Below are positions 25,408-26,486 of a DNA stretch of 64,000 nt, piece after piece. The stretch is taken from the IMG/VR virus record IMGVR_UViG_3300037419_001521; one strand, 5' to 3'. Each line of letters begins with the position of its first letter. The first letter of the stretch is position 1. Source of the stretch: a virus. Taxonomy: Duplodnaviria; Heunggongvirae; Uroviricota; Caudoviricetes. A program made the translations under genes and the position numbers. The notes beneath the pieces are model-generated. The model had not been told where the DNA came from. It saw nothing but the letters and a program-made list of their open reading frames with translations, and did not search any database.

Positions 25408-25932
25408 TTATGCTCCAGAAAGTCGAAAACCCCCTGGACTGACTGGGGTCCTGGGGGATTCATCGTCGCCGTCATCGGGATCGTCGGGTCTGTCCGGCGG
25501 CGATACAGCGTTCTGGGTGCGCAGCTGGTCCAGCGCGGCGGCGTAGGCGCTTTCAACGGCTTGCGCGAGCTGTTCCCTCGACTCGTCGCCTGTGATCTTC
25601 TTGCCGTTGATCTCCAAGCCGGTGTTGATGAAGCTCAGGTGGGCTTGCAAGGTCTCGGTCAGAACTTCGAGGAACCCGACAGGCGGGGTAGCGAGCACAC
25701 CTTCCTTGAGGATGCGCCGACACTCCCCTCTCTTCCAACCGGCCGCCTTGTCGAAGGCGTGGAGCTTTTGAGGCTTGTTCACCACTGGAATCTCGCCGAG
25801 TAGCCACCGGCGGATCGTTTCGTCACTCACACCAGCGATCCGGGCTGCATCAGTCCTGCTCCGGCCTTCGTCCTGGAAAGCTTTGGCCAGCGCGGAAGCC
25901 AGTAGCTGCGCATTCTCGTGGAACTTCGGCAT
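25408..25932 (-). CDS. HTH DNA-binding protein (repressor-like) with Asp/Pro-rich tail
   Basis: HTH segment RTDAARIAGVSDETIRRWLLGE. Start at ATG 25932 (MPKFHENAQ) with no obvious SD, so possibly leaderless. Faces the 22-bp repeats. Confidence 0.5.
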   Translation of the reverse strand: MPKFHENAQLLASALAKAFQDEGRSRTDAARIAGVSDETIRRWLLGEIPVVNKPQKLHAFDKAAGWKRGECRRILKEGVLATPPVGFLEVLTETLQAHLSFINTGLEINGKKITGDESREQLAQAVESAYAAALDQLRTQNAVSPPDRPDDPDDGDDESPRTPVSPGGFRLSGA

Positions 25933-26059
25933 ACAGGGATGGTAGCCCCGCGCGTGTCGGCGATGGAAGAGGTTGGCACATACTTGCCAAATATTAACGC
26001 CGACGCGGCCCCCGGACAGGACGATCGTCCAGCTCACCGGCATGTTGCCCGACCAGGCA

Positions 26060-26103
26060 CCACACGTTGCCCACACGAACCCCACACGTTGCCCACACGA
26101 ACC
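26060..26103. repeat. perfect 22-bp tandem direct repeat x2 (CCACACGTTGCCCACACGAACC) plus a partial third copy; operator-like
   Basis: Five CCACACG half-sites between the divergent HTH genes (25932 minus, 26142 plus). Confidence 0.7.
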
Positions 26104-26141
26104 CCTTACGGACCCCACACGAGTCGGTTAATGTTTGCTGC

Positions 26142-26486
26142 ATGGCAACCAGAAACCTCGCGCAAGCCAAGCGGGATGCCAAGCGGCCGGTCGGCGAACC
26201 GCCGATGATCACAGTCCAGGTCCCGCTCGAGCAGTGGGGCAAGCTCCTCGGGATGCCGTTCACGGGACCGCCGGTGATAGCTGTCACACTGCCGATCGCG
26301 AAGTGGCGCAAGCTCCTCGGGGAGATGTCGGTTCGACAGTTGGCCTCGAGACTGCCGATGCGCAGCGACGGTCGACAGTGGTCGGCTTCGTACGTCTCCC
26401 GGTTCGAGACCGGACTGCGGGGTGGCTCCGAAGAACTCCGGGCGGCCATCCAGAAGGCTATCGCCGAAGCGACACACGCGGCGTAA
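26142..26486 (+). CDS. XRE-like HTH protein (Cro-like position)
   Basis: HTH MSVRQLASRLPMRSDGRQWSASYVSRFETGLRGG. Divergent from the minus-strand HTH gene. Confidence 0.5.
   Translation: MATRNLAQAKRDAKRPVGEPPMITVQVPLEQWGKLLGMPFTGPPVIAVTLPIAKWRKLLGEMSVRQLASRLPMRSDGRQWSASYVSRFETGLRGGSEELRAAIQKAIAEATHAA

What the first reader, a model, noticed from the sequence alone, without database searches (positions are those of the whole stretch)
25408..26486. Divergent HTH genes flanking a perfect 22-bp tandem duplication carrying five CCACACG half-sites
The minus-strand HTH gene (start 25932) and the plus-strand XRE-like gene (start 26142) face each other across CCACACGTTGCCCACACGAACC repeated twice perfectly (26060-26103) plus a partial third copy. 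This is a classic repressor/Cro-type genetic switch with iterated operators, and a second candidate immunity locus in the same phage. The minus-strand gene has no Shine-Dalgarno sequence, so its mRNA may be leaderless, as is typical for actinobacterial repressors.
Basis: seen in the sequence. Interest (0 to 1): 0.55.

Follow-up and report, generated by a model that had tools for sequence, protein, structure and literature searches.

The report
Phage switch with direct-repeat operators
Between two back-to-back regulatory genes of an uncultured actinobacterial phage lies a row of 22-base direct repeats that most likely docks the phage's own repressor at its early promoter; this is a familiar kind of genetic switch with an unusual, fast-evolving operator layout.

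Summary
A perfect 22-bp tandem duplication (26060-26103) lies between divergent genes for a 174-aa HTH protein (25408-25932, minus) and a 114-aa XRE-fold protein (26142-26486, plus), in a siphovirus-like actinobacteriophage with a tyrosine integrase. Relatives from other metagenomes change the reading. Every relative has a phased direct-repeat array at this spot, with 3-6 units of 22 bp, or three of 11 bp in the most distant one. The element shared across relatives with 22-bp arrays is the core A[T/C]GTTGCCC, not CCACACG. The window array has four units (26042-26129), at -100 to -13 of the right-hand start codon. Both genes have a conserved TANNNT hexamer 6-7 nt before the ATG and no Shine-Dalgarno sequence, so both are probably leaderless. 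The array is non-coding, because the long ORF through it is not conserved. The left protein's recognition helix covaries with array type. The right protein's helix and an 18-bp dyad (25973-25990) stay conserved together. Best reading: a lysis/lysogeny-type switch in which the left protein binds head-to-tail on the array to shut the early promoter, working like P2 C without being a member of that family. Binding is inferred, not shown. Rivals are binding by the Cro-like protein, activation rather than repression, and a DnaA-box or iteron-like element. Interest is moderate.

The parts
25408..25932 (-). Left gene: 174-aa protein with an N-terminal HTH (recognition helix VSDETIRRWL), a helical C-terminal part and an acidic Pro-rich tail. 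Candidate immunity repressor.
   Evidence: ORF. The identical 174-aa protein was called on 6 JGI contigs. Weak HTH_31/HTH_28 hits at residues 21-65. Homologs start at the conserved MP[KN]FH, and upstream extensions are not conserved. The family is tiny: 41 hits at E<=0.001 among 1.84 billion representatives, only 3 at E<=1e-30, and just 2 of those are full-length relatives.
25939..25944 (-). -10-like hexamer TACCAT, 6 nt upstream of the left ATG. Inferred leaderless promoter P_L.
   Evidence: Read from the sequence. The same position holds TACCAT in L002 and L001, TAAGAT in L013 and TATGCT in L010, each 7 nt before the ATG. There is no Shine-Dalgarno sequence. Inference only: the consensus promoter scan found nothing.
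25973..25990 (.). 18-bp perfect dyad TTGGCAcatactTGCCAA. Candidate symmetric operator, at -41 to -58 of the left ATG.
   Evidence: Unique in the window even with 3 mismatches allowed. Conserved with 1-3 changes in L001, L002, L008 and L013 but not in L010.
25991..25996 (-). Second leftward -10-like hexamer TAATAT. It lies within GTTAATATTTG, the mirror image of the right promoter's GTTAATGTTTG.
   Evidence: Inverted repeat I11, 25988-25998 / 26127-26137, 91% complementary. Conserved as TAATAT in L001, L002 and L008, but not in L010. Inference.
26042..26063 (+). Array unit 1: ATGTTGCCCGACCAGGCACCAC
   Evidence: In register with the units of L002, L008 and L013. Copy at 66% identity in repeat family D1.
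26064..26085 (+). Array unit 2: ACGTTGCCCACACGAACCCCAC
26086..26107 (+). Array unit 3: ACGTTGCCCACACGAACCCCTT. Its last two bases begin the -35-like hexamer.
   Evidence: The promoter-proximal unit TGTTGCCCACA is shared with L002 and L008, and L010 has TGTTTTCCACA at the same place.
26108..26129 (+). Array unit 4 (degenerate): ACGGACCCCACACGAGTCGGTT. It fills most of the right promoter's spacer and includes the first base of the -10 hexamer.
   Evidence: TRF row 26070-26122, period 22, 83% matches. Read from the sequence.
26106..26111 (+). -35-like hexamer TTACGG of the inferred early promoter P_R, with a 17-nt spacer.
   Evidence: The same position holds TTACGC in L002 and L008 and TTGCGG in L010, with spacers of 17-18 nt. 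Inference.
26129..26134 (+). -10-like hexamer TAATGT, 7 nt upstream of the right ATG. Inferred leaderless P_R.
   Evidence: TAATGT in L002, TACCGT in L008 and TAAAGT in L010, each followed by the invariant TTGCTGC-ATG.
26142..26486 (+). Right gene: 114-aa protein. The C-terminal half is an XRE-type HTH. The N-terminal half carries a duplicated strand-helix module. [quoted passage not shown]
25136..25173 (+). Terminator-like hairpin separating the convergent DUF397 gene from the left gene.
   Evidence: 17-pair stem followed by a T-rich tail.

Best explanation
This is the lysis/lysogeny-type control region of a temperate actinobacteriophage. Two promoters fire back to back 210 bp apart, and each starts transcription at or next to the start codon of its gene, giving leaderless mRNAs. 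The 22-bp direct repeats form an iterated, asymmetric operator. Three good units lie at -100 to -35, and a degenerate unit covers the spacer of the rightward early promoter. Units are phased two helical turns apart, so bound proteins sit on one face of the DNA. The most likely binder is the 174-aa left-hand HTH protein, acting as the repressor. It would bind head-to-tail and cooperatively along the array and occlude or trap RNA polymerase at the early promoter. The separate 18-bp dyad next to the leftward promoter is the likely site for the Cro-like right-hand protein.

Shown: the anatomy, its conservation in relatives, the non-coding status of the array, the XRE fold of the right protein, and covariation of the left protein's helix with array type.

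Inferred: the promoters and leaderless starts, who binds where, and repression rather than activation.
For: 1. The repeat is far beyond chance.
2. Every relative has a phased direct-repeat array at the same place. L002 has 4.1 copies of 22 bp at 86% matches. L008 has 4.7 copies at 84%. L010 has 2.6 copies of 11 bp. The flanking -10 hexamers and start codons are conserved. Presence and phasing are therefore selected, while unit sequence and copy number drift, as expected for immunity specificity.
3. Covariation. P0001 and P0004 are only 60% identical overall, yet they share an identical recognition helix (VSDETIRRWL) and the same array type (…GTTGCCCACAC[G/A]AACCCCAC). P0001 is equally distant (60-64%) from the L001/L002/L008 proteins, but those differ in the first 4-5 helix positions (TSETV, GGDTL, APDTL) and their arrays have a different variable half (GGATTCACCGCTG).
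4. The right protein's helix 3 (SASY[V/I]SR) and the dyad are both conserved across those same lineages.
5. Position. The array abuts and overlaps the -35 and spacer of the promoter of the early operon. The left gene is monocistronic and followed by hairpins.
6. The phage has a tyrosine integrase with arm-type repeats beside it, so a temperate lifestyle is plausible.
7. Precedent: the P2 C repressor binds non-palindromic direct repeats 22 bp centre to centre (PMC2995052).
Against: - No binding data exist. The assignment of proteins to sites rests on covariation among only 4-5 lineages that share ancestry.
- The good units lie mostly upstream of the -35 hexamer (-37 to -100), which is more typical of activator sites than of repressor sites.
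- Within the L001/L002/L008 group the first helix residues differ (TS, GG, AP) although their arrays are nearly the same.
- The left protein's model is unreliable (pLDDT 51), so its oligomeric state and second domain are unknown.
- It has no LexA-like cleavage domain.
- In L010 a copy of the array motif replaces the dyad, so the two-site division of labour does not hold everywhere.
- The promoters fit only the loose TANNNT rule. The sigma-70 consensus scan found none.
Confidence: 0.55

Rival explanations
1. The array is bound by the right-hand Cro-like protein rather than the left one. It would polymerise on direct repeats spaced one or two helical turns apart, as Apl of phage 186 and Cox of P2 do, to down-regulate its own promoter and, by spreading, the leftward promoter.
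For: - The window array has an 11-bp sub-period (ACGnnnCCCAC six times).
- L010 has TGTCCGA three times at 11 bp.
- Apl sites are direct repeats at 10-11 bp between the switch promoters (bioRxiv 10.1101/784983).
- The right protein carries a duplicated N-terminal strand-helix module in the three lineages with 22-bp arrays. It has a single module in the lineage with an 11-bp array.
Against: - The right protein's recognition helix is almost unchanged between lineages whose arrays differ in half of each unit.
- No array motif occurs at the attP-like region beside the integrase, unlike Apl/Cox.
- Its fold is XRE, not Xis or winged-helix.
- The module/period correlation rests on one contrast.
Confidence: 0.2
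2. The array is an activator-binding region. A phage or host protein bound upstream of the -35 hexamer recruits RNA polymerase to the early promoter, or to the leftward promoter, in the manner of lambda CII or class I activators.
For: - The well-conserved units lie at -37 to -100, upstream of a weak -35 (TTACGG), where activators usually sit.
- Lambda CII also recognises direct repeats (discussed in PMC2995052).
- A phage WhiB regulator is encoded in the same operon.
Against: - The degenerate proximal unit extends across the -35 and spacer.
- No CII-like or other activator family was detected for either protein.
- Type-specific divergence of the units fits immunity specificity better.
Confidence: 0.1
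3. The array is an iteron-like or DnaA-box-like element. It would be a phage replication origin, or a site that recruits or titrates host DnaA, embedded in the switch.
For: - Tandem direct repeats of about 22 bp are the hallmark of plasmid iterons (own knowledge).
- Read as 9-mers separated by 2 nt in one orientation, the window array is TTGCCCGAC/GGCACCACA/TTGCCCACA/AACCCCACA/TTGCCCACA/AACCCCTTA/GACCCCACA.
- TTGCCCACA matches the actinobacterial DnaA box TTGTCCACA at 8 of 9 positions (PMC4285127 Table 1).
- An 8/9 box lies at -53/-54 or -64 in all lineages, and in L010 it is TTTTCCACA.
- The background frequency of 8/9 or better is 8.6e-5 per position and strand.
Against: - The mismatch falls on T4, which is invariant in known DnaA boxes (own knowledge).
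- One-mismatch boxes occur at the chance rate across the window, 11 found against 9.2 expected.
- Most L002 and L008 units lack the CCACA half.
- There is no adjacent initiator gene. The primase/polymerase is 19 kb away.
- There is no AT-rich unwinding stretch beyond about 20 bp.
- The resemblance was noticed after the fact.
Confidence: 0.08
4. The repeat is a neutral slippage product (a minisatellite) in a tolerant intergenic spacer, or part of a longer coding sequence.
For: - The two central copies are 100% identical, which suggests a recent duplication.
- Copy number varies between relatives.
- Three contigs end in or beside the array.
- ORFs of 236 and 139 aa run into it in the window.
Against: - Arrays with diverged units (84-86% matches) persist at the same position, with the same phase and core, in lineages whose flanking proteins are only 45-63% identical.
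- A period of 22 bp cannot encode a peptide repeat.
- The upstream ORF extensions are absent in L002 and L008, and the conserved protein starts are MP[KN]FH and MAT.
Confidence: 0.05

Closest known systems
Phage P2 immunity repressor C and its operator O1/O2 (P2-like coliphages)
   Same: An HTH repressor recognises non-palindromic direct repeats. The repeat centres are 22 bp (two helical turns) apart, at the early promoter. Operator sequence, spacing and position differ between heteroimmune relatives (PMC2995052, PMC1904268).
   Different: P2 has two 8-bp repeats, whereas this locus has 3-6 full units. P2's lytic and lysogenic promoters face each other, whereas these are back to back. No sequence relation was found: a profile of the left protein finds no P2 C entry in the PDB. 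The left protein is 174 aa against 99 aa for P2 C.
Lambda-type CI/Cro switch (OR between PRM and PR)
   Same: Divergent repressor-like and Cro-like HTH genes with back-to-back promoters and several operators between them. The lambda cI mRNA from PRM is also leaderless (PMC10491246). The right protein has the same XRE/lambda-repressor-like fold.
   Different: Lambda operators are two-fold symmetric and are shared by both proteins. Here the iterated sites are direct repeats, plus one separate dyad. The left protein has no S24/LexA-like cleavage domain.
Apl of phage 186 and Cox of P2 (RDF-regulators binding tandem direct repeats)
   Same: Arrays of direct repeats one helical turn apart between the switch promoters, with cooperative head-to-tail binding. 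The encoding gene is first in the early operon (bioRxiv 10.1101/784983). An 11-bp sub-period is present in the window and in L010.
   Different: No matching repeats occur at the attP-like region. The right protein is XRE-fold rather than Xis-like. The main period here is 22 bp.
Cluster A mycobacteriophage repressors (L5 gp71, TipsytheTRex) and stoperators
   Same: An actinobacteriophage repressor of about 180 aa with an N-terminal HTH that recognises asymmetric sites (PMC9283540, PMC1934351).
   Different: Those sites are single 13-14-bp elements scattered through the genome, whereas here they form one tandem array. There is no homology to L5 gp71 (hhalign probability 2.7%).
Plasmid iterons (e.g. 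the 22-bp iterons of R6K) and phased low-affinity DnaA sites of oriC
   Same: Tandem direct repeats of about 22 bp, or 9-mers with 2-nt spacers in one orientation. The core is 8/9 identical to the actinobacterial DnaA box. The iteron and oriC details are from own knowledge.
   Different: There is no neighbouring initiator gene and no AT-rich unwinding element. The mismatch falls on the invariant T4 of the box. The array sits on a promoter between two regulator genes.

Membership tests
Lambda-type CI/Cro switch | Divergent repressor and cro genes with back-to-back promoters | tested here: met
   The genes at 25932(-) and 26142(+) are divergent and syntenic in all relatives. The promoters are inferred from conserved TANNNT hexamers.
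Lambda-type CI/Cro switch | Several two-fold symmetric operators shared by both proteins | tested here: not met
   The iterated elements are direct repeats. Only one dyad is present, at 25973-25990.
Lambda-type CI/Cro switch | Repressor with a C-terminal LexA-like (S24) self-cleavage domain | tested here: not met
   Pfam finds only weak HTH hits in the left protein. The PDB profile search gives nothing.
P2-type C repressor / direct-repeat operator | Operator made of non-palindromic direct repeats about two helical turns apart | tested here: met
   Period of 22 bp in the window, L002 and L008. The P2 value of 22 bp is from PMC2995052.
P2-type C repressor / direct-repeat operator | Two half-sites spanning the -10 or -35 of the early promoter, with face-to-face Pe/Pc promoters | tested here: not met
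   There are 3-6 units, lying mostly upstream of the -35. The genes and promoters are divergent.
P2-type C repressor / direct-repeat operator | Protein homologous to P2 C | tested here: not met
   P2 C has a solved structure (2xcj). The left-protein profile finds no such chain at E<=1. There is no Pfam repressor family hit.
Cluster A mycobacteriophage repressor/stoperator system | Many asymmetric sites dispersed across the genome | tested here: not met
   The unit and its core occur only in the array, apart from one lone core copy at 13890-13899.
Cluster A mycobacteriophage repressor/stoperator system | Homology to L5 gp71 | tested here: not met
   hhalign probability 2.7%, limited to the HTH. 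tblastn of the left protein against 50,697 phage records gives no match.
Apl/Cox-type RDF-regulator | Direct repeats at 10-11 bp between the switch promoters | tested here: inconclusive
   An 11-bp sub-period exists in the window and in L010, but the L002 and L008 units have no convincing 11-bp substructure (56% matches).
Apl/Cox-type RDF-regulator | Same recognition repeats at attP | tested here: not met
   The region beside the integrase carries different repeats (GTTCCGGGATATCTCCGGGAT) and no array motif.
Iteron origin / DnaA-box cluster | Tandem direct repeats in helical phase | tested here: met
Iteron origin / DnaA-box cluster | Adjacent initiator gene and AT-rich unwinding element | tested here: not met
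   The neighbours are HTH proteins, a 58-aa ORF and WhiB. The primase/polymerase is at 45546. The only AT-rich patch is about 20 bp, around 25980-25999.
Iteron origin / DnaA-box cluster | Boxes matching the host DnaA consensus TTGTCCACA | tested here: inconclusive
   There are 8/9 matches at conserved positions. However, one-mismatch boxes occur at the chance rate in the window, and the mismatch is at T4. The host is unknown.

The most novel reading that the evidence does not exclude
The conserved core of the array (TTGCCCACA, or TTTTCCACA in the most distant relative) is a DnaA-box-like 9-mer. In the window it is phased every 11 bp in one orientation, as in the low-affinity DnaA arrays of oriC. 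Under this reading host DnaA, alone or together with the phage repressor, assembles on the early-promoter array. Early transcription, the lysis/lysogeny decision or phage replication would then be coupled to the host's replication-initiation state. A lone copy of the same 11-mer upstream of the phage Lsr2 gene would belong to the same circuit.
Probability: 0.08. Interest if true: 0.7.

Novelty: new variant of a known kind. Interest (0 to 1): 0.4.

Why it matters
If the model holds, this phage group controls its early promoter with a variable-length row of head-to-tail binding sites rather than a few palindromes. Immunity type would be written both in the unit sequence and in the number of units. 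That would extend the direct-repeat operator logic, known mainly from P2-like coliphages, to actinobacteriophages. It would also add a compact, apparently leaderless, bidirectional promoter/operator cassette that could serve as a tunable regulatory part for high-GC hosts. The natural series of relatives, with 3 to 6 units and 11-bp versus 22-bp periods, is a ready-made test set for how cooperativity scales with site number. The proteins belong to a very small, unannotated family, so any binding data would be new. Nothing here overturns a principle. It is a well-defined, testable case of moderate interest.

Tried and rejected
- Megablast of 25000-27400, and tblastn of both proteins, against 50,697 GenBank phage records: no match.
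- Exact scans for the conserved string GGTTAATGTTTGCTGCATGGCAAC (viral contigs only) and its 18-mer core GTTTGCTGCATGGCAACC (viral, metagenome and genome collections) gave none or only unrelated hits. None encodes either protein.
- PDB sequence searches with both profiles: nothing meaningful.
- AlphaFold2 of the left protein: pLDDT 51, so it was not used for fold search.
- Rfam on 25100-26600: nothing.
- NCBIfam and PADLOC: nothing useful for either protein.
- Stoperator-like dispersal of the unit or the dyad: rejected.
- Shared repeats at attP: rejected.
- Homology to L5 gp71: rejected.
- Coding reading of the repeats: rejected.
- The lone array-like site upstream of Lsr2 as a type-specific remote operator: rejected. 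It is conserved in relatives without following their array type.
- Looking for an annotated syntenic switch in the nearest isolated phages, through a neighbouring gene. The best mycobacterial hit, prophiGD54-2, is not syntenic.
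Full report
CONTEXT. The window comes from a siphovirus-like actinobacteriophage with 60% GC. It encodes a tape-measure protein (13-3111), minor tail proteins and an endolysin (8831-9994). It also encodes a primase/polymerase (45546-47951) and a tyrosine integrase (54521-55723). The tail proteins are at most 49% identical to those of Rhodococcus, Gordonia and Mycobacterium phages. The finding lies where the late and accessory genes meet a long rightward early operon. That operon starts with the 114-aa protein, followed by a 58-aa ORF, WhiB, an exonuclease and the primase/polymerase. 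Immediately to the left is a convergent XRE-DUF5753/DUF397 gene pair.

THE OBSERVATION. Tandem Repeats Finder reports 26060-26105, period 22, 2.1 copies, 100% matches and score 92, the best score in the window. The 22-mer with up to three mismatches occurs nowhere else, and shuffles expect 0.00. CCACACG occurs at 26060, 26071, 26082, 26093 and 26115. Ten further copies in 64 kb are what chance gives, so the signal is the clustering. Both ORFs exist, and metagenome gene callers called them with the same starts.

RELATIVES. Neither protein has a homolog in GenBank phages. Searches of the large protein collection found few relatives:
- the identical phage on 6-7 JGI contigs, whose intergenic region is 100% identical;
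- proteins 59-63% identical to the left protein;
- proteins 80%, 71% and 48% identical to the right protein.
A profile search of 1.84 billion representatives found only two strong full-length relatives, so the family is tiny.

Gene order is conserved in all relatives: DUF5753-XRE, DUF397, left gene, intergenic region, right gene, 58-aa ORF, WhiB.

THE ARRAY IN THE RELATIVES. Every lineage has a phased direct-repeat array at the same place.
- L002 has ATGTTGCCCGGATTCACCGCTG four times plus a degenerate fifth unit.
- L008 has five to six such units.
- L013 has GTGTTGCCCAAGTCACTGCCAC / ATGTTGCCCACACAAACCCCAC / ACGTTGCC…, and then the contig ends.
- L001 ends inside its first units.
- The most distant lineage (L010-L012) has TGTCCGA three times at 11 bp, plus one copy 45 bp upstream.

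In register with these, the window array has four units:
- 26042 ATGTTGCCCGACCAGGCACCAC
- 26064 ACGTTGCCCACACGAACCCCAC
- 26086 ACGTTGCCCACACGAACCCCTT
- 26108 ACGGACCCCACACGAGTCGGTT

Across the lineages with 22-bp units the shared element is the core A[T/C]GTTGCCC. The CCACACG heptamer belongs to the window/L013 type only. All copies are direct, so 'half-sites' is a misnomer.

NON-CODING STATUS. A 22-bp period shifts the reading frame, and GFVWATCG appears once in each of two frames. The in-frame upstream extensions seen in the window are absent in L002 and L008. The protein alignments begin at the conserved MP[KN]FH and MAT.

PROMOTERS (INFERRED).
- Rightward: TAATGT (26129-26134) lies 7 nt before the ATG at 26142. 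The same place holds TAATGT, TACCGT or TAAAGT in relatives, always followed by the invariant TTGCTGC-ATG. A -35-like TTACGG/TTACGC/TTGCGG lies 17-18 nt upstream.
- Leftward: TACCAT (25939-25944, minus strand) lies 6 nt before the ATG at 25932. Relatives have TACCAT, TAAGAT or TATGCT 7 nt before theirs.
- Neither gene has a Shine-Dalgarno sequence.
- The T-A…T positions are kept while the inner bases change. This is the expected signature of a -10 element that places the transcription start on the start codon, as is common in mycobacteria (PMC4633059) and known for lambda cI (PMC10491246).
- A second leftward -10-like TAATAT (25991-25996) mirrors the right promoter (inverted repeat I11). It would start transcription inside an 18-bp perfect dyad, TTGGCAcatactTGCCAA (25973-25990).
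- That dyad is unique in the window. It is conserved with 1-3 changes in four of the five other lineages.
- Relative to the right-hand start, units 1-3 lie at -100 to -35 and unit 4 at -34 to -13.
- The consensus sigma-70 scan finds no promoter here, so all of this rests on comparative inference.

WHO BINDS WHAT (INFERRED). The left proteins of the window and L013 are 60% identical overall. They nevertheless have an identical recognition helix (VSDETIRRWL) and share the array type. The window protein is equally distant (60-64%) from the L001/L002/L008 proteins. Those have TSETV, GGDTL or APDTL at the start of the helix, and their arrays differ in the variable half of each unit. In contrast, the right protein's helix 3 (SASY[V/I]SR) barely changes across those lineages, and neither does the dyad. 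This favours two pairings: left protein with the array, and right protein with the dyad. The sample is small and the lineages are related. In L010 an array motif replaces the dyad.

RIVALS.
1. Binding by the Cro-like protein in Apl/Cox fashion. In favour are the 11-bp sub-period and the coincidence between one or two protein modules and an 11-bp or 22-bp period. Against are its conserved helix, its XRE fold and the absence of the motif at the attP-like region. That region carries its own arm-type repeats at 55736-56016.
2. Activation rather than repression. The best units lie upstream of the -35.
3. An iteron or DnaA-box reading. Written as 9-mers with 2-nt spacers, the window array contains TTGCCCACA twice. 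This is 8/9 identical to the actinobacterial DnaA box TTGTCCACA (PMC4285127). An 8/9 box sits at -53/-54 or -64 in every lineage. However, the mismatch falls on the invariant T4. One-mismatch boxes occur at the chance rate in the window. There is no initiator gene or AT-rich element nearby. The resemblance was also noticed after the fact.
4. A neutral minisatellite or a coding sequence. The conserved position, phase and core, and the ORF comparison, argue against both.

COMPARISON WITH KNOWN SYSTEMS. In working principle the closest is the P2 C repressor, which binds non-palindromic direct repeats 22 bp apart at the early promoter. Its operators also differ between heteroimmune relatives. This locus is not a member of that family. 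There is no sequence relation, there are more than two units, and the promoters are divergent rather than face to face. It shares the gene layout of the lambda switch but not the symmetric shared operators or the cleavable repressor. It is not a cluster A stoperator system.

VERDICT. The locus is a phage switch region with an unusual, rapidly diverging array of phased direct-repeat operators and two probably leaderless divergent genes. I rate it a new variant of a known kind, of moderate interest. The function is inferred only.

Noticed in passing
window 13878-13899 (minus strand), upstream of the gene at 13975-14526: A lone site, TGTTGCCCACAAATCAACCCCA, shares the 11-mer TGTTGCCCACA and the ACCCCA tail with the array units. 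It lies 76-97 bp upstream of a phage-encoded Lsr2 gene (Pfam Lsr2 plus Lsr2_DNA-bd). The site is conserved in the L002-type phage (L014) and, more loosely, in the L010-type phage (L015) without following their array types. It could be a site for a conserved factor, or simply conserved intergenic sequence.
   Followed up: partly
window 26199-26267 and 26268-26324 (right gene, residues 20-42 and 43-61): The Cro-like protein has an internal duplication of a strand-helix module (PPMITVQVPLEQWGKLLG / PPVIAVTLPIAKWRKLLG). The 92-aa homolog P0008 has one copy. It belongs to the only lineage whose array has an 11-bp period rather than 22 bp.
   Followed up: partly
L001 1-25, L013 1-51, L009 1-12: Three independent metagenome contigs end inside or right beside the repeat array. 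Either the assemblies broke on the repeat, or copy number varies within the populations.
   Followed up: no
window 24042-25123: An XRE-DUF5753 regulator (Sco1979-like, below the NCBIfam cut-off) and a DUF397 protein form a rightward pair converging on the left gene. The pair is syntenic in all relatives.
   Followed up: partly
window 55736-56016: Repeats of GTTCCGGGA[T/A]ATCTCCGGGAT, in direct and inverted orientation, lie just downstream of the tyrosine integrase gene. They look like arm-type integrase sites of attP.
   Followed up: partly
window 25408-25500 (C-terminus of the left protein): After an acidic, proline-rich and predicted disordered linker, the left protein ends in a short motif, PRT-V-PG-FRLSG. 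The motif is conserved in the window, L013 and L010-type proteins but replaced in L001 and L002. It may be a degradation or partner-binding tag.
   Followed up: no
window 14523-15092, tandem repeats at 14884-14954: The gene after Lsr2 encodes a lysine/alanine-rich protein with a weak histone H1-like HC2 hit, built on 15-bp tandem repeats. The phage may therefore carry two nucleoid-associated-type proteins side by side.
   Followed up: no
window 39741-44073 and 50952-54359: The right arm carries two metallophosphatases, an RlaP-type nucleotidyltransferase (RNA repair pathway), a cREC_REC receiver-like domain protein and a ribonucleotide reductase small chain. The RNA-repair-like genes are unusual cargo.
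   Followed up: no
window 23805-23816 / 23873-23884: A perfect 12-bp inverted repeat (CCGGCAGTCGGG / CCCGACTGCCGG), with 56 nt between the arms, lies in the divergent region upstream of the XRE-DUF5753 gene.
   Followed up: no
window 25241-25299: Eleven-bp inverted arms (GAAAGCCCCGA … TCGGGGCTTTC) lie between the convergent DUF397 gene and the left gene, in addition to the terminator-like hairpin at 25136-25173. This is probably a terminator for the left gene.
   Followed up: no
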